Shown piece by piece: positions 12,001 through 18,000 of a stretch of DNA of 60,122 nucleotides. The stretch lies in IMG/VR virus record IMGVR_UViG_2851938318_000007. One strand, given 5' to 3'. This DNA comes from a virus (lineage: Duplodnaviria; Heunggongvirae; Uroviricota; Caudoviricetes). The position numbers were made by a program. How positions within the stretch are numbered: the stretch's first letter is position 1; the number at the start of each line of letters is the position of its first letter.

Positions 12001-15000
12001 GACCCAAATTATTGCTGGAGGGAGGTTGATCCAGTTGATGCTGCAAATGAAGCTATGAGTTATCACAACGATTAATGTCAGGAGGCCGCCCGAAAGGGCG
12101 GTAATGAATGGTCACATTATTTAGAAAAAATATCCGCGAAAGAGTAGAACAACAGAATTTCTGTTTCTCATTCTGTTTATCGTGTTGATGATACCGATAT
12201 CCCCGTTAATCCTAGTCTGGATAATCGGAAAAATAATTGAGCCAGTTATTGAATTGTATAACGACGTGGTATGGGCGTCATTCAACACACTGCACAATAA
12301 AATTAATCCGTATAAGGAAAACTGATATGGCAACTTTGACAAAAAAAGAACGGGCATGGTTGAACGAATTACAGGAAGTTCTTGATCGCTGTCCATCACC
12401 GAAAAAAATTGGCTTTTACACCATTGGCGATAAAAGCATTTACCTGTATGACCTACGCCGCATGGATGAAATCATGGAGGCTCTTGATAATCGTTCGTCG
12501 ATGGATTGGTGTGTTGCTGTTCATGATATGAATGCAGGGTTTGATGAAAAGATTTTGTTCCCCTCATCAGTTGAAAGCACTGCGGGTTAAGGAGTAACAC
12601 ATGACCACTATTACCAAAGAACGTATTGAATTGTTCATTAAAAATCCGGTTGAAAACGGGCTTACCCGTGGTGAACAAATGGAACTGGCACGGATTGCGC
12701 TGGCATCGCTGGAAGCAGAGCCAGTTGGTGATTTTTATGAATACAAACCGGATGACTGGTAGCAGCGTTCGGCTGGAGATAAAGCGCCAAAATGGACGCC
12801 ACCCTATGCCGTTTTTCCAGCGCCCGTAGTGCCGGAAGAAATGGATTTGCTTACATGCCATCTCGATGGTGTAACTGAAACATATGCTGAGGGATGGAAC
12901 GCTTGCCGCGCTGCCCTGCTTCAGGGCAAAGGGGAGCCCGGGAAACAAGTTCGCGAATTGACAATGCTGGTTAAACAATTGGTTAGTCAACTGAAGAAAG
13001 CGAAACCGGGCTGCAAATTGCCGGATAAAGTGATGGACTACCTGGAGCGAAGCGGACTTATAAGCGTGGAGGATGTTTCACGATGACCTGGCCTGAAGCA
13101 TTCACAACGGTAGGAATTGCGATGGCGGTGGCGCTGGTTGTGTATTCGATTTGCCGCTGGGGATAAAAACGATTTGCGGGAAAAGGATAGTTAAGTAGAA
13201 TTGCTGCGGGTGCTTGAGGCTATCTGCCTTGGGCATGAACACCAAAGGCAGATAGAGAAAAACCCACCCGACTATAAATCAAAGTGTATTACCCCCATTT
13301 GTTGGACGATGAAATGGGTTTAGTTAACTATGTCGGTATCGACATGACTAAAACAACCTTAAATTGCTCGATTAATAGACAAGTAGTTTTGAAAGATTAA
13401 ATTTATGCGATCCGGTATTTTCAAGGGATAGCCTTTATGAGGTTATCTTATGGGGTTAAAACATCAAGAACAGTTGTGTTATAATACATAGAAACTAATA
13501 AGAGACGTTGCAACTATATGAATGTAATAGATTTGTTTTCTGGCGTTGGAGGTCTAAGTCTTGGTGCTGCACGTGCTGGATTTGATGTTAAAATGGCAGT
13601 TGAAATTGATCAACATGCTATTAATACTCACGCAATTAATTTTCCAAGAAGTTTGCACGTCCAAGAAGATGTTTCTTTACTAAATGCAGAAATAATTAAG
13701 GGTTTTTTTAAAAACGATATGCCCATAGATGGTATTATTGGCGGTCCTCCGTGCCAAGGATTTAGTTCAATAGGCAAGGGGAATCCTGATGATAGCAGGA
13801 ATCAGCTTTACATGCATTTCTACCGTTTAGTATCAGAATTACAGCCATTATTCTTTTTGGCAGAAAATGTTCCAGGTATTATGCAAGAGAAATATTCTGG
13901 CATTAGAAATAAAGCATTTAATTTGGTTAGCGGTGATTATGATATTCTTGATCCCATCAAGGTAAAAGCATCTGATTATGGTGCTCCAACTATTCGAACT
14001 AGATATTTTTTTATCGGTGTAAAAAAATCATTGAAGCTTGATATTTCAGATGAAGTATTTATGCCTAAAATGATTGATCCGGTTACTGTAAAAGATGCTT
14101 TGTATGGATTACCAGATATTATCGATGCCAATTGGCAATCAGACTCTGAGAGTTGGCGAACAATTAAAAAAGATCGAAAAGGGGGATTTTATGAAAAATT
14201 ATGGGGGCAGATCCCTCGGAATGTTGGTGATACAGAATCGATCGCTAAGTTAAAAAATAATATCATATCTGGATGTACCGGAACATTACATAGCAAAATC
14301 GTCCAAGAGCGTTATGCTTCCTTATCTTTTGGGGAAACTGATAAAATTTCAAGATCTACAAGATTAGATCCAAATGGTTTTTGCCCGACTTTAAGGGCGG
14401 GAACCGCTAGAGATAAAGGAAGCTTTCAAGCCGTCAGGCCGATCCACCCTTATCATCCAAGAGTGATTACACCAAGAGAAGCTGCTAGATTACAAGGCTT
14501 CCCTGATTGGTTTCGCTTTCATGTAACTAAATGGCATAGTTTCAGACAAATAGGAAATAGCGTGTCACCAATAGTTGCTGAATATATATTAAAGGGGCTG
14601 TACAATTTATTAAATAAAAGAGTACAGCCCGAATATTTAAACCATAATTCTTTGGAAGTTAGGGTATAACCTATAGTATTTATAATAGTTATCCCGTTCA
14701 TTTTCGTTTAAAGAGAACTCTTCAGCGGCTGCCTGATATGCTTCTTTATCAGGCAGTTTACTATCTAAATTTATCTTTTCTTTAATTGTTAGTGTTGGTA
14801 TTGCTATTTCTTGCACGTCTTCCCAATTTGTTGAATAAAATTGCCAGTTAGAAAGGTCGCATGCCTTAGATAACTCTATATATTCTTGTTCTGAGGAGAA
14901 AAAACCTGATATTGTCAACATGGTATGACTGCCATCATTATATTGATTTAAGGATAATGGGTAATACTGAATCTTATCCTTACGTCCTGAAAGACCACGT

Positions 15001-18000
15001 TCTATTGCTGATCTAAAAGCGTTTGTAATAATTCGTATTAAAAGAGCTTTAATCTTACGATCTGAAAGATCTGCATTTGATATCTGAAGATTAAAATCAA
15101 GATACTTTTTCCCAAGCAATGATTTTAATGAATTAATAAAAGCTTCTTTAAAAATATCTAAACTTTCTCCAACTCTACGTTGGTAATAAGAACTAGGATT
15201 TATGGGGAAGGTGACCTTCAAAATATCAAAAGAGCTTACTTTAGTACTTAGTAAGTGTATATCATCTAGATCCGTTTGTATTTTTTTCGGGGAGGCATAG
15301 TCTAACCATGTTATTGATGGTTTAGAAAAACTATAATCAAGAATAAAGTCATGAGCTGATATTAGCTTACAATCAATACAATTATAAGGCAAATTATATT
15401 TTTGTCTGATGTGAGTAGACTCTTGTTCTTCGAGAGAAATCATATCAGAAAGAGCGATACGATTATGCATGATTCTAAAATCTTCAAGCATCGGACCACC
15501 AAAACCTATATATGTATATTCTTGAATATTTAGTCTTTTGCTTAAGAGGTTTAGGCTTTCGAGAAAAATCTCTCTATCAATAGACTTATTATGCCTTAAG
15601 TGATAGGGAATGTATTGTCCAGACATCACTTCACCTCTTCAATCACCGTATCAAAGCATTGCATCCCCACATCAGAAGCGCTAGCATCTTCATGTCCAAA
15701 GAAATATTTAGATAAAATTTTAACATCTTCTTTCTCTCTGGTGAAGATTATTCGTACAGTAGAGCTTTTTTTTACTGGGGTAGGCAGCTTAGGTGTATAT
15801 CGCCACTCATTTTTGTTTCTATTAGGGTTGGACCAGTTATTTTTTTTATCTTCTGGAGTTGATTGTGGGGTAATTTCAAATAAAGATTGAGCTTCATGTG
15901 ACTGAGCTGACTTAAGTAATTTTTTCCCTTCTTCAAGATGCTCACCTTTCCACTGATTGGTGAATCGAATAAAATGCATCATCCCTTCAATCATTTTATT
16001 TCGTACATCATTGTACAATGTAGAACTAAGATCGACACCTCGTTTCGTTGTTGTTATTGGTAATTTTTCTGGGTTTTTACTGGTAAAGCGAACAACCCCA
16101 GAAATTGCTATAAATTGGGTATGAAACCTTGGTACATTAGCAAAGCCCCAACCTGTGAGATGTGTCTTATCACAATATAGAACAACGCGGTCATTGCAAA
16201 TGACAGTCCATCCAGCATCATCAGAACTCCTTTTTTCTAAAACATCATCATTGTCATCTTCTAAATTTTTATAGAAGCCAACAACTAAATCGATATCAAC
16301 ATCGTCTATTTTAGCTTTATATATGTATGGTTCTATTTTAGAATGATCAGTTATGATGTTAATCGGATTATGTTCAACAACAACTCCATTTAATTCTATT
16401 TTAAATCCTTTTTGAATAATAAATGACAATGAGTGTTTTATCTGTAAAAAGAGATCAGTAAGATATGTGCTCTCATTAAATTTTTGTGCCACATTAGAAT
16501 GGAGTTTTTTTATCTCTATAGTTGTGCCTGTTGGATTTTTGTTATCATAGTCACTCTCGTGCATCGGTATTTTCCAACCATCACCATCGATCCAATCAGG
16601 TGTTATATCTACAGTGAATGCGCCATCGGGATTATTCGATTGTATTGAGCAATCTCTACCCATTTTAAAAATGGCTCTTTTCATACCAATACCATAGACG
16701 CCAACGGTGCCTTCATTTTCTTCTTCTTTTTGATGGGGTCGTCCCATTTTAAAAGCATATTCTCGGAAGCTTTTAGGGATACCTCCGCAATTGTCTTCTA
16801 TAATAAAGACATCTTTATTAATCGTAAGTTTCGCATAAAATCCTTCATATGGTTTTGAAGTTTTTTTTGTGTCTTTTATTGTACGTAAAGCCCCATCGAC
16901 GCAGTTATCAAGCAGATCAAGTATGGCATCGTTTAAGTCGATATCTCGAGTTAGCATACTTACAAAAAATCTTTTACTAGGACTAAAGTCTGCTGTTGGA
17001 GTCGTGTTCTCAGTCATAATTTACTCTCTATGTGTTTGGGAAAATAAATACCTTAAGTGCAAATTGTTGATTTTAAACGCTTCGCATGCGAAGTCAACGA
17101 TGTTAAGAAAGAAAGTGCATGTGATCTAACAGTATGTTTTTAAAAAAAGATTAGCTTTATGAGAATTCAGGACTGAATCCCGTGAGAGGAAAATAACATA
17201 TGTTATTGTTGCATTGCTGTGTTGTTTGGGATTTGTTGCACCATTCTGGCGTTGGTATATCTAGTTCGTTGTTCATTTTGTTAATTGTACAACAGGCAGA
17301 CAACAGAGAGCTTTTAGCCTAGTTAGCTTACGAAATTAAACAACTAAGATTATCGGCGGGGAGTGGTCACCGCTACTCTTTGGCTAGGAGACTTCAACGC
17401 AACCGCACACAACCAGCTTCGGCGGGTTTTGTTTTTTCCTGGCATTCTGGTTTACAATTTGCGTGCTAGCTTGAACAACTGGCATCTGCTGCACTGCGCC
17501 ATCGAGAGATTGAGAAATGGCGCATATACAACTGGTCAAACAAACTTCTTCTGGTTTACTTCTCCCGGCGACGCCGGAGAGTTGCGATTTTCTGCATCAA
17601 ATCAAAATAGGTGAGTGGATACACGCAGATTTTAAGCGTGTGCGTAACTACGCATTCCACAAGCGTTTTTTCAAACTCCTGCAACTGGGATTCGATTACT
17701 GGACTCCGGTCGGTGGGGCGATCACGCCTCGCGAACGAGAACTGCTGTCTGGTTTCGTTGATTACCTGTGCGAATCAGTTGGTCGGGAACACACGCCAGC
17801 CCTGAGTGATGCCGCAGAGCAATACCTTAACACCGTTGCGACTCGTAGAACCCGGGATACGGCGTTGCTAAAGTCGTTTGAGGCTTTCCGCGAGTGGGTA
17901 ACCATTCAGGCCGGATTTTACACCGAGCATATTTATCCGGACGGTAGCCGTGGGCGTCGGGCAAAATCCATCGCTTTTGCGAATATGGACGAAGTCGAGT

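What the first reader, a model, noticed from the sequence alone, without database searches (positions are those of the whole stretch)
14637..15626. Uncharacterized partner protein coupled to the GHKL ATPase (TGATG overlap) and overlapping the methyltransferase 3' end
Its ATG overlaps the GHKL stop (TGATG) with a GAGGTG RBS, implying stoichiometric co-expression. Its last 33 bp overlap the convergent methyltransferase, so transcription of one strand may interfere with the other. I found no clear PD-(D/E)xK or HNH motif; a Gly-rich YIGFGGP segment near the N-terminus could be a nucleotide- or SAM-binding loop. If the module restricts DNA, this is the likeliest effector or sensor.
Basis: partly seen in the sequence, partly recalled or inferred. 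Interest (0 to 1): 0.7.

Follow-up and report, generated by a model that had tools for sequence, protein, structure and literature searches.

The report
Methyltransferase-fold partner of MORC-like ATPase
The 'uncharacterized partner' is a SAM-methyltransferase-fold protein that always sits behind a MORC-like ATPase and usually beside a cytosine DNA methylase; this widespread, nuclease-free, restriction-modification-like cassette rides on E. coli prophages and nobody has tested what it does.

Summary
ORF 14637-15626(-) is a real 329-aa gene. Its ATG shares one base with the GHKL stop (TGATG), a GAGGTG lies 5 nt upstream, and its last 33 bp overlap the convergent Dcm gene.

It is not unclassified. 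It is a full-length member of Pfam PF20553 (Methyltransf_35, E=2e-89), and PGAP names it 'O-methyltransferase'. The AlphaFold model (pLDDT 89) is a class-I SAM-methyltransferase fold. YIGFGGP is motif I, E66 closes strand 2 and invariant D109 closes strand 4. It is not a nuclease, and nothing supports the 'O-' label.

My best reading (inferred) is a nuclease-free, R-M-like mobile module. Dcm marks self, and the ATPase-methyltransferase complex acts on unmarked DNA, with the partner as its only catalytic candidate. No experiment or defence catalogue covers it. Interest is moderate: a new variant of paraMORC-linked R-M-like systems.

The parts
14637..15626 (-). Partner gene (329 aa). Class-I SAM-methyltransferase-fold protein of Pfam PF20553 (Methyltransf_35), PGAP 'O-methyltransferase' WP_000016656.1. 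Layout: motif-X-like N-terminal tail (Y8, R11, K14, R18); motif I G41-F-G43-G44-P45; E66 at the end of strand 2; D109-Y110 at the end of strand 4; poorly conserved helical insert 143-218; strand 6/7 hairpin 219-245; C-terminal helical domain 246-329.
15626..17017 (-). MORC-like (paraMORC) GHKL+S5 ATPase, 463 aa, first gene of the two-gene operon. Bergerat motifs: D34-LL-D37-N38-CV-D41-G, D75-N-C-G-G-I, G106-x-Y-G109-I-G-M-K113, G164-T165. S5-domain lysine in TTTK325. Asp34 occupies the position of the usual catalytic Glu.
13518..14669 (+). Convergent C5-cytosine DNA methyltransferase (Dcm type, 383 aa) with intact motifs (DLFSGVGG, GPPCQGFS, ENV, GNSVSP).
14637..14669. 33-bp overlap of the 3' ends of the partner and the Dcm gene. 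Overlaps of 6-50 bp recur in 12 of the 18 convergent-type loci tabulated (15 of which are among the 43 complete loci).
15624..15637 (-). Translational coupling site: GAGGTG (15637-15632), a 5-nt spacer, then TGATG (stop 15628-15626, start 15626-15624).
14595..14630 (.). Inverted repeat GGGCTGTACAATTT / AAAGAGTACAGCCC, 6 nt downstream of the partner's stop codon and inside the Dcm 3' coding end. The RNA hairpin folds at -19.5 kcal/mol (z = -3.6). It is a possible terminator or stability element for the ATPase-partner transcript.
   Evidence: not conserved in other loci
17070..17097 (-). Sigma-70-like promoter match (TTGACT-16-TAAAAT, 10/12), 53 nt upstream of the ATPase start codon.
   Evidence: consensus match only; total matches are not above shuffled expectation
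13456..13485 (+). Sigma-70-like promoter match with extended -10 (TTAAAA-18-TG-TATAAT, 10/12), 33 nt upstream of the Dcm start codon.
   Evidence: consensus match only
13300..17300 (.). Low-GC cassette (30-37% G+C against about 50% in the flanks). It lies between the replication genes and the DUF1367/DUF1364/DUF1133 late-control genes of a Rac-like lambdoid prophage integrated at ttcA, and looks like a horizontally acquired moron.

Best explanation
SHOWN.
- The ORF encodes a stand-alone 329-aa protein with a class-I (Rossmann-like) SAM-dependent methyltransferase fold. It belongs to the large, unstudied family Pfam PF20553.
- It is the obligate, translationally coupled second gene of a two-gene operon. 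The first gene encodes a MORC-like GHKL+S5 ATPase.
- This pair is usually attached to a C5-cytosine DNA methyltransferase (86% of complete loci) and often to Vsr (35%).
- The pair moves as a cassette on prophages and islands. Here it is a low-GC moron in a Rac-like STEC prophage.
- No nuclease is part of the conserved set.

INFERRED.
- The three genes form a restriction-modification-like self/non-self module. Dcm writes the 5mC self mark.
- The ATPase probably dimerises on ATP and clamps DNA, as MORCs do, and works as a stoichiometric complex with the partner on DNA that lacks the mark.
- The partner is the only catalytic candidate for the 'restriction' arm. It keeps a SAM pocket (Gly loop, E66) and a large invariant polar active site (Y8, R11, K14, R18, R74, Q75, N78, D109, Y229, D231, E283).
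- I therefore expect it to bind SAM and to bind or chemically modify nucleic acid, not to cut it.
- Its C-terminal domain may match the specificity of the linked Dcm.
- The invariant but low-confidence N-terminal tail of the partner and the TGWG/YHTQF loop of the ATPase are the likely contact or substrate elements.

The confidence given applies to the whole statement. The SHOWN part alone I hold at about 0.95 and the INFERRED part at about 0.4.
For: Identity and fold:
- Pfam PF20553, E=2e-89, full length. All 33 divergent homologues hit only this family.
- AF2 model with pLDDT 89 and pTM 0.88, showing the b1-b7 methyltransferase topology.
- G43/G44, E66 and D109 are conserved at 93%, 89%, 95% and 100% in 148 representatives that share 26-35% identity with the query.

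Pairing with the ATPase:
- The ATPase lies directly upstream on the same strand in every readable locus of 61, mostly with 1-8 nt overlap.
- Distance matrices correlate at r=0.83 for the pair, against 0.37-0.46 for either protein with Dcm.

Linkage to Dcm and to mobile elements:
- Dcm is present in 37/43 complete loci and adjacent in 31. Vsr is present in 15/43.
- No other recurrent neighbour exists except integrases.
- Mobile and defence contexts: this lambdoid prophage; P2-like prophage variable sites; Pf inovirus PfAC20; loci next to type I HsdR, ScoMcrA, TIR and CHAT genes.
- The partner's C-terminal domain co-varies with the Dcm target-recognition region beyond shared phylogeny (partial Mantel r=0.25, p=0.0005; r=0.18, p=0.007 after removing close relatives). 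Its core and helical insert do not.
- In E. coli, Dcm and an intact pair occur together in 172 of 5426 complete genomes. The single Dcm-less genome (O157:H7 F6294) carries a ~2-kb deletion that also destroys the partner and leaves the ATPase intact.

Precedent: paraMORC ATPases in R-M neighbourhoods (PMC2292703) and the validated paraMORC3/Shedu defence protein VcSduA (PMC12137116).
Against: - No phenotype, binding or activity data exist for any member. None was found in the literature searched.
- No nuclease is present, so the restriction step has no known chemistry.
- Six of 43 complete loci (cyanobacteria, Parabeggiatoa, one decayed Acidobacteriaceae locus) have no linked Dcm or other methyltransferase. 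The intact pairs among them keep essentially all key residues. The pair can therefore persist without an adjacent protective methylase.
- Closely related pairs (about 70% identity) sit next to Dcm genes only 35-43% identical.
- Motif IV is D-Y, not a canonical (D/N)PP(Y/F). There is no sequence-level similarity to any characterised methyltransferase.
- PADLOC has no model for either protein.
- Partial Mantel tests are prone to false positives with related sequences, and the F6294 deletion is a single event.
Confidence: 0.5

Rival explanations
1. Modification-only kit. The partner is an active second methyltransferase acting on DNA or RNA, and the MORC-like ATPase loads or drives it. Together with Dcm it simply broadens the protection of the phage or element DNA against host restriction. 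There is no restriction arm.
For: - Temperate phages often carry orphan methyltransferases. The cassette is on three kinds of temperate phage.
- No nuclease is conserved.
- The pair persists without a linked Dcm, so it is evidently not lethal there.
- The active site looks catalytic.
Against: - The gene organisation mirrors R-M systems: convergent overlapping or co-directional operons, plus Vsr.
- The cassette is frequent in non-phage islands and defence-gene neighbourhoods.
- A methyltransferase has no obvious need for a stoichiometric MORC-type clamp.
- The only E. coli genome that lost Dcm also lost the partner.
Confidence: 0.2
2. Guard or abortive-infection module, analogous to PrrC/RloC. 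The ATPase monitors the methylation machinery, DNA state or SAM supply. On phage interference it unleashes the partner, which methylates an essential RNA (tRNA or rRNA) or another target to stop growth.
For: - The best structural neighbours are RNA methyltransferases: RlmI/RlmO, Trm1, RsmD, RlmJ, TYW2, TlyA.
- Anantharaman et al. proposed paraMORC-HEPN fusions in R-M neighbourhoods as PrrC analogues (PMC3710099).
- A longer paraMORC paralogue with an unknown C-terminal extension sits beside Dcm in 8/43 loci.
- Stand-alone pairs lie next to CHAT, Trypco1 and TIR conflict genes.
Against: - The linked Dcm has no cognate endonuclease to guard.
- No methyltransferase toxin of this kind is known.
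Confidence: 0.12
3. The partner is a catalytically inert methyltransferase-fold adaptor or reader. It binds SAM or DNA to sense state, while the real effector is the ATPase clamp itself or a host nuclease.
For: - Motif IV is non-canonical (D-Y).
- Methyltransferase-fold subunits serve as specificity readers in Type I and Type III systems (established knowledge).
- The C-terminal domain co-varies with the Dcm TRD.
Against: About 20 invariant polar and aromatic residues cluster on the catalytic face, including D109 at the catalytic position. Such conservation across 26-35% identity is typical of an enzyme acting on a constant chemical group, not of a reader.
Confidence: 0.1
4. The partner is the DNA-cleaving effector (a cryptic nuclease), in the strong sense of the first reader's 'effector'.
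For: It occupies the R-gene position next to a Dcm. Several acidic residues are invariant (D49, D109, D231, E283).
Against: The confident fold is methyltransferase throughout the core. There is no nuclease family hit at E<=10 in 33 homologues. There is no PD-(D/E)xK, HNH, GIY-YIG or PLD signature.
Confidence: 0.03
5. The pair is a two-component-like signalling system (kinase plus receiver) that regulates an R-M system, as proposed for a similar Dcm-GHKL-partner arrangement (PMC8011034).
For: A similar genomic theme (C5-methylase, HATPase_c_3 protein, partner, Vsr) was described in that paper.
Against: - There are no PF19191 or PF19192 hits.
- The partner has a methyltransferase fold, not a CheY-like fold.
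- The paper's receiver-like protein is 600 aa, a different family.
Confidence: 0.02

Closest known systems
Pfam PF20553 Methyltransf_35 ('Putative O-methyltransferase'); PHROG 19983; PGAP product name 'O-methyltransferase'
   Same: The protein is a full-length member (300 bits against a 27-bit cut-off). All homologues found are single-domain proteins of about 330 aa.
   Different: The family has no characterised member. The 'O-' in the name is not backed by anything I could test: there is no similarity to known O-methyltransferase families, and the structural neighbours are of all substrate classes.
paraMORC/MORC GHKL ATPases in restriction-modification neighbourhoods (Iyer, Abhiman & Aravind 2008, PMC2292703)
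   Same: The upstream gene is a GHKL+S5 ATPase whose closest structures are MORC3, SMCHD1 and MORC2. It is linked to a cytosine methylase and Vsr, exactly the context described in that paper.
   Different: That paper pairs paraMORCs with helicases and nucleases (RE-fold, HNH, TIR). Here the invariable partner is a methyltransferase-fold protein, and no nuclease or helicase is present.
Shedu type I-D / VcSduA (paraMORC3 with a C-terminal DUF4263 nuclease; PMC12137116)
   Same: It is an experimentally validated anti-phage system built on a paraMORC-type GHKL ATPase that controls an effector domain.
   Different: In VcSduA the effector is a fused PD-(D/E)xK nuclease and there is no methylase. Here the effector candidate is a separate SAM-methyltransferase-fold protein with a Dcm alongside. 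There is no PADLOC Shedu hit.
HEF_HK / Response_reg_2 'two-component-like' gene pair next to C5-methylases (Bellieny-Rabelo et al. 2021, PMC8011034)
   Same: The genomic theme is the same: C5-methylase, HATPase_c_3 protein, conserved partner, Vsr. The taxa overlap (E. coli, Pectobacterium, Yersinia, Vibrio).
   Different: The partner family is different (600 aa against 329 aa), and there are no PF19191 or PF19192 matches. The structural results here contradict a kinase/receiver reading for this locus.
Nuclease-poor methylation-based defences (BREX PglX; Type III Mod as specificity subunit)
   Same: A methyltransferase-fold protein works with an ATPase to discriminate self from non-self DNA without an obvious dedicated nuclease (BREX), or as the site reader for the restriction arm (Type III). 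This rests on established knowledge.
   Different: There is no homology to PglX, Mod, BrxC or PglZ (no PADLOC hits). Here the self mark is most likely written by a separate Dcm, not by the partner.
Trm1 / RsmD / RlmI / RlmJ-type nucleic-acid methyltransferases
   Different: Sequence identity is 6-14%. hhalign finds no similarity to E. coli RlmJ or RsmJ. Motif IV is D-Y instead of DPPY or DPFG, and there is no catalytic Cys.

Membership tests
Pfam PF20553 (Methyltransf_35) | HMM score above the curated gathering cut-off (27 bits), over the full length | tested here: met
   300.4 bits, E=2e-89, residues 1-328 on profile positions 1-308 of 309. All 33 aligned homologues match.
Class-I SAM-dependent methyltransferase fold | Seven-stranded sheet in the order b1-aA-b2-aB-b3-aC-b4-aD-b5-aE-b6-b7, with a b6/b7 hairpin | tested here: met
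Class-I SAM-dependent methyltransferase fold | Gly-rich motif I after strand 1 and an acidic residue at the end of strand 2 (SAM carboxypropyl and ribose contacts) | tested here: met
   G41-F-G43-G44-P45 follows strand 38-42 (G43 93%, G44 89%). E66 ends strand 61-66 (95%).
Class-I SAM-dependent methyltransferase fold | Canonical motif IV at the end of strand 4, such as (D/N)PP(Y/F) for amino-methyltransferases or PC for C5-methyltransferases | tested here: inconclusive
   W107-L-D109-Y110 is present, with D109 100% and Y110 91% conserved. The prolines are missing and there is no conserved Cys.
Class-I SAM-dependent methyltransferase fold | SAM binding and methyl transfer | not testable with these tools
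   Needs biochemistry. Model coordinates could not be inspected for the pocket.
O-methyltransferase (database label) | Similarity to a characterised O-methyltransferase family, or its catalytic or metal-binding residues | tested here: not met
Type II restriction-modification system | A cognate DNA methyltransferase adjacent to the restriction genes | tested here: met
   A Dcm-type gene lies at 13518-14669. A Dcm is linked in 37/43 complete loci.
Type II restriction-modification system | An endonuclease with a recognisable nuclease fold or motif | tested here: not met
   The partner and the ATPase have no nuclease family hit or nuclease fold. No recurrent nuclease neighbour exists.
MORC/paraMORC GHKL+S5 ATPase (upstream gene) | Bergerat-fold motifs I-IV plus an S5 transducer domain with the conserved lysine | tested here: met
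MORC/paraMORC GHKL+S5 ATPase (upstream gene) | Catalytic glutamate four residues before the motif-I asparagine | tested here: not met
   This position is Asp34, invariant in 22 homologues. One Parabeggiatoa homologue has Glu. The placement rests on the motif pattern; hhalign to MutL aligned only motif II.
HEF_HK / Response_reg_2 two-component-like pair (PMC8011034) | Matches to PF19191 and PF19192; a receiver-like partner of about 600 aa; a histidine-kinase-like fold | tested here: not met
Catalogued anti-phage systems (PADLOC v2: MZA, Shedu, Hma, BREX, DISARM, Druantia and others) | HMM match of the ATPase or the partner to a system component | tested here: not met
   There are zero PADLOC families for both proteins at E<=1; only the Dcm matches generic methyltransferase models. 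The NCBIfam MzaB match has E=0.037, 12 bits against a cut-off of 850.

The most novel reading that the evidence does not exclude
A nuclease-free immune system in which a bacterial MORC-type clamp and a SAM-dependent methyltransferase-fold enzyme neutralise DNA lacking the resident 5mC mark. The mechanism would be entrapment or silencing, or a damaging or blocking SAM-derived modification, instead of cleavage. This would be a prokaryotic counterpart, and possibly a forerunner, of the eukaryotic link between MORC ATPases and DNA-methylation-based silencing of invaders.
Probability: 0.18. Interest if true: 0.85.

Novelty: new variant of a known kind. Interest (0 to 1): 0.55.

Why it matters
The cassette is widespread. 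The partner family holds more than 2100 clusters at 50% identity, and more than 5400 ATPase relatives were found, from E. coli O157/O111 prophages to cyanobacteria, Firmicutes, Planctomycetes and an archaeon. Even so, it is absent from defence-system catalogues and has no experimental record.

It has the genetic grammar of a restriction-modification system but no nuclease. Working out what a MORC-like clamp plus a SAM enzyme does to DNA could reveal a new restriction chemistry. It could also give a tractable bacterial model for how MORC ATPases cooperate with DNA methylation.

It sits in easily manipulated E. coli prophages, so the key tests are simple. The label 'O-methyltransferase', now propagating through RefSeq, should be treated as unsupported.

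Tried and rejected
- Sequence searches of both proteins, and of their profiles, against all PDB chains. Nothing significant for the partner; only a weak MORC3 match for the ATPase.
- hhalign of the partner profile against E. coli RlmJ and RsmJ, and of the ATPase profile against MutL. No usable alignment; only GHKL motif II aligned.
- PADLOC and NCBIfam scans. No family for the partner or the ATPase.
- The idea that this is the 'Response_reg_2/HEF_HK' pair of Bellieny-Rabelo et al. Rejected: there are no Pfam hits, their partner is 600 aa, and the folds differ. 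That paper's supplements are not held.
- A search for a hidden recurrent nuclease by clustering 344 neighbouring ORFs from about 55 loci. Only integrases recur.
- A search for an alternative methyltransferase in Dcm-less loci. None found.
- A test of whether the hairpin at the gene junction is a conserved element. It is not.
- Literature searches for PF20553, Methyltransf_35, GHKL with O-methyltransferase, HATPase_c_3 with DNA_methylase, bacterial MORC anti-phage, and paraMORC. No study of this pair was found. The P2 hotspot paper does not mention it.
- The afdb50 fold library was unavailable.
- I could not predict the heterocomplex or inspect model coordinates, so SAM-pocket geometry and the interface are inferred from sequence and secondary structure only.

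Full report
**1. Observation**

The ORF table lists 14637..15629(-) (GTG start; 14637..15626 from the ATG), the upstream ORF 15626..17017(-) and the convergent ORF 13518..14669(+).

On the minus strand the junction reads gaaGAGGTGaagTGATGtct. The ATPase stop TGA (15628-15626) and the partner's ATG (15626-15624) share one base. GAGGTG (15637-15632) lies 5 nt upstream of the ATG. The 3' ends of the partner and the methyltransferase overlap by 33 bp, 14637-14669. RefSeq annotates the same three genes with the same boundaries: WP_001100703.1 DNA cytosine methyltransferase, WP_000016656.1 'O-methyltransferase' and WP_000138556.1 'ATP-binding protein'.

**2. Where it is**

The window is the chromosome of a Shiga-toxigenic-type E. 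coli. The 3.7-kb module is at least 99% identical in 173 of 5426 complete E. coli genomes (O157:H7, O111 and others). It is always chromosomal and single copy.

It lies inside a Rac-like lambdoid prophage integrated next to ttcA. The window starts at intR. The module sits between the replication genes and the DUF1367/DUF1364/DUF1133 genes that precede two tRNA genes and the lysis cassette. The module has 30-37% G+C against about 50% on both sides, so it is an acquired moron.

**3. What the partner is**

It is not unclassified. It matches Pfam PF20553, Methyltransf_35 'Putative O-methyltransferase', over its whole length (E=2e-89, 300 bits), and PHROG 19983, which has unknown function. PADLOC and NCBIfam have nothing for it. 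No PDB sequence resembles it, even with a profile.

A word-indexed search found 57 homologues down to 31% identity. An exhaustive profile search found 2123 clusters at 50% identity (1094 at E<=1e-30). Nearly all of the best 150 are stand-alone proteins of about 320-345 aa.

An AlphaFold2 model built on 33 homologues is confident (pLDDT 89, pTM 0.88). It has the strand and helix order of a class-I SAM-dependent methyltransferase:
- strands at 38-42, 61-66, 84-88, 104-109 and 135-141;
- a long helical insert;
- a 219-231/234-245 hairpin;
- a C-terminal helical domain at 246-326.

In 148 representatives that are 26-35% identical to the query, these residues are invariant or nearly so: Y8, R11, K14, R18, Y39, G43, G44, D49, E66, R74, Q75, N78, W107, D109, Y110, T139, Y229, D231, M236, P277 and E283.

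E66 is the acidic residue at the end of strand 2 that binds the SAM ribose in this fold. D109 sits at the catalytic motif-IV position at the end of strand 4. Motif IV is D-Y, not a canonical (D/N)PP(Y/F). There is no conserved cysteine, and hhalign finds no similarity to E. coli RlmJ or RsmJ.

So the fold and a preserved cofactor site are well supported, but the substrate class is not. Nothing I could test supports the 'O-' in the database name. The protein is not a nuclease.

**4. What the upstream protein is**

It carries all Bergerat-fold motifs and an S5-domain lysine (DLLDNCVDG, DNCGGI, GxYGIGMK, GT, TTTK325). It hits HATPase_c_3.

The family is very large (more than 5430 hits) and unusually conserved, at about 45% identity from E. 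coli to cyanobacteria, Nitrospirales and Gemmatimonadetes.

An odd detail: the position of the catalytic Glu (four residues before the motif-I Asn) is an invariant Asp. One homologue has Glu there. No nuclease-like domain or metal-binding motif is visible in the C-terminal third of the protein.

**5. Conserved anatomy across genomes**

Individual look-ups already showed the same arrangement:
- Ralstonia: ATPase, partner, then convergent Dcm and Vsr;
- a Cronobacter P2-like prophage;
- Gemmatimonadetes and Nitrospirales: Dcm-ATPase-partner(-Vsr) as one operon;
- Scytonema: the pair only.

A scan of one genome per species returned 61 loci from Proteobacteria, Cyanobacteria, Firmicutes, Latescibacteria, Planctomycetes, Verrucomicrobia, Acidobacteria, Poribacteria and one Methanoregulaceae archaeon.

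In every locus where both genes are readable, the ATPase lies immediately upstream of the partner on the same strand, mostly with a 4-nt overlap (1 or 8 nt in some).

Of the 43 loci with at least 2.5 kb on both sides:
- 37 carry a Dcm-type gene: 15 convergent just downstream, 13 upstream and co-directional, 3 downstream and co-directional, 6 nearby;
- 15 carry Vsr;
- 8 carry a second, longer paraMORC paralogue next to the Dcm;
- 6 have no Dcm.

Convergent-type loci often have overlapping 3' ends, as here: overlaps of 6-50 bp occur in 12 of the 18 such loci in the full table.

Clustering 344 other neighbouring ORFs found no further recurrent family except integrases. In particular, no nuclease or helicase recurs.

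The Dcm-less loci (cyanobacteria, Parabeggiatoa) have housekeeping or conflict-system neighbours (CHAT, Trypco1/trypsin, TIR) and no other methyltransferase. With single substitutions in a few homologues, they retain the key residues of both proteins.

Outside chromosomes the module is rare. It occurs in one phage record, a Pseudomonas Pf inovirus carrying ATPase-partner-Dcm, and in two plasmids.

**6. Co-evolution**

Across 46 complete trios, pairwise identities of the partner and the ATPase correlate strongly (r=0.83). Each correlates much less with the Dcm (0.37 and 0.46). Some pairs about 70% identical sit next to Dcm genes only 35-43% identical.

The partner evolves fastest (mean identity 0.35, against 0.46 for the ATPase and 0.48 for the Dcm). 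By region, its core averages 0.43, its helical insert 143-218 averages 0.21 and its C-terminal domain averages 0.30.

After controlling for the ATPase, the Dcm core and the partner core, only the partner's C-terminal domain co-varies with the Dcm target-recognition region. The partial Mantel r is 0.25 (p=0.0005), or 0.18 (p=0.007) after removing close relatives. The core and the insert give negative values.

This is suggestive, not proof, because such tests are liberal with related sequences.

**7. A natural experiment in E. coli**

The Dcm occurs in 172 genomes and the pair in 173. In the one genome without the Dcm (O157:H7 F6294), a deletion of about 2 kb removed the Dcm together with the 3' two-thirds of the partner. 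The ATPase gene is intact, and PGAP marks the partner as a partial pseudogene.

This is one event only. It is what one expects if the partner cannot be kept without the methylase in this host.

**8. Mechanism**

Shown:
- The partner is a methyltransferase-fold protein with a preserved cofactor site and a rich invariant active site.
- It is obligately coupled to a MORC-like ATPase and co-evolves with it.
- The pair is usually linked to Dcm, with or without Vsr, on mobile DNA.
- No nuclease belongs to the conserved set.

Inferred: this is a restriction-modification-like module. Dcm marks self DNA. The ATPase, which by analogy with MORCs is an ATP-dependent dimeric DNA clamp, forms a complex with the partner and acts on unmarked DNA. 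The partner is the only enzyme left to fill the 'restriction' role, so I expect it to bind SAM and to bind or modify nucleic acid, not to cut it.

Two elements are invariant yet modelled with low confidence: the partner's N-terminal tail (residues 1-10, pLDDT 39) and the ATPase loop 285-298. Both are good candidates for the interface or for substrate contacts.

Rivals:
- a modification-only kit for the phage;
- a PrrC-like guard whose effector methylates RNA. The structural neighbours are mostly RNA methyltransferases, and Anantharaman et al. proposed paraMORC-HEPN fusions in R-M neighbourhoods as PrrC analogues (PMC3710099);
- an inert reader subunit;
- a cryptic nuclease or a two-component-like signalling pair, both disfavoured by the folds.

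**9. Comparison with what is known**

Iyer et al. (PMC2292703) described MORC and paraMORC ATPases in R-M neighbourhoods with helicases and nucleases. This methyltransferase-fold partner is not among them.

paraMORC3 with a fused nuclease is now a validated Shedu-type defence protein, VcSduA (PMC12137116).

Bellieny-Rabelo et al. (PMC8011034) described a strikingly similar theme (C5-methylase, HATPase_c_3 protein, conserved partner, Vsr) and read it as two-component-like. Their partner is a 600-aa protein, and our proteins do not match their Pfam families. It is therefore an analogous arrangement, not the same one. For this locus the kinase/receiver reading is contradicted by the structures.

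I found no paper on PF20553 or on this gene pair.

**10. Verdict**

The protein itself is a new member of a catalogued but unstudied family. The three-gene system is best described as a new, nuclease-free variant of paraMORC-linked R-M-like systems.

Interest is moderate (0.55). The module is widespread, has clean genetics and is directly testable in E. coli, but its function is still an inference.

Noticed in passing
window 16916-16918 (codon for Asp34 of the ATPase, 15626-17017 minus strand): The MORC-like ATPase has an invariant Asp where GHKL ATPases normally have the catalytic Glu (DLLDN against ELVEN in MutL). One Parabeggiatoa homologue (L032) has Glu. This may mean a slow, switch-like ATPase.
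   Followed up: partly
L018 9061-10824(-), L019 9602-11347(-), L020 1021-2853(+), L021 10385-12076(+), L026 4837-6477(+), L027 10246-11964(+), L033 195-1892(-), L034 879-2606(-): In 8 of 43 complete loci a second, longer paraMORC paralogue (about 550-610 aa, E about 1e-38 to the ATPase profile) sits next to the Dcm, giving four-gene clusters such as Dcm-GHKL2-GHKL-partner. Its roughly 170-aa C-terminal extension has no Pfam hit. It might be the Ymh-HEPN fusion mentioned in PMC3710099. It is absent from the window.
   Followed up: partly
window 14595-14630: A 14-nt inverted repeat forms a hairpin (-19.5 kcal/mol, z = -3.6) 6 nt after the partner's stop codon and inside the last 75 nt of the Dcm coding sequence. 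It is a possible terminator for the ATPase-partner transcript. Comparable hairpins occur in some but not all convergent loci.
   Followed up: yes
L076 (E. coli O157:H7 F6294, NZ_CP038372.1) 3367-3869; corresponds to window ~13220-15257: A natural deletion of about 2 kb removes the Dcm gene and the 3' two-thirds of the partner but leaves the ATPase intact. It is the only one of 173 E. coli genomes lacking the Dcm.
   Followed up: yes
L074 (Pseudomonas phage PfAC20, PP058144.1) 280-3711: A 13.6-kb filamentous (Pf) phage carries ATPase-partner-Dcm as its first three genes, all co-directional, plus a second small cytosine methyltransferase gene at 5438-6082.
   Followed up: partly
L006 (Cronobacter) 6589-10146 and L023 (Enterobacter sp. 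MGH 24) 6574-10140: The same three-gene cassette occupies the variable site between the portal/terminase genes and the replication gene A of P2-like prophages. This position is known as a hotspot for anti-phage systems (PMC9122126), although that paper does not mention this cassette.
   Followed up: partly
window 19097-19172 and 19273-19349: The prophage carries two tRNA genes downstream of the module. ARAGORN calls the first tRNA-Met (CAT) while RefSeq annotates it tRNA-Ile, presumably a lysidine-modified CAU. The second is tRNA-Arg (TCT).
   Followed up: no
L067 2539-3696(+); L032 5400-5786(-) and 9027-12452(-); L017 3890-4999(-): Stand-alone ATPase-partner pairs without a Dcm lie next to other conflict-system genes: a CAP12/Pycsar-type TIR protein, a Trypco1 protein with a trypsin-like protease, and a TPR-CHAT protein.
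   Followed up: no
window 1-8500: The window starts exactly at the integrase of a Rac-like prophage. It carries intR, xisR, ralR, recT, recE, kilR, sieB and a cI/cro-like switch, so several other exclusion or toxin genes lie in the same element.
   Followed up: no
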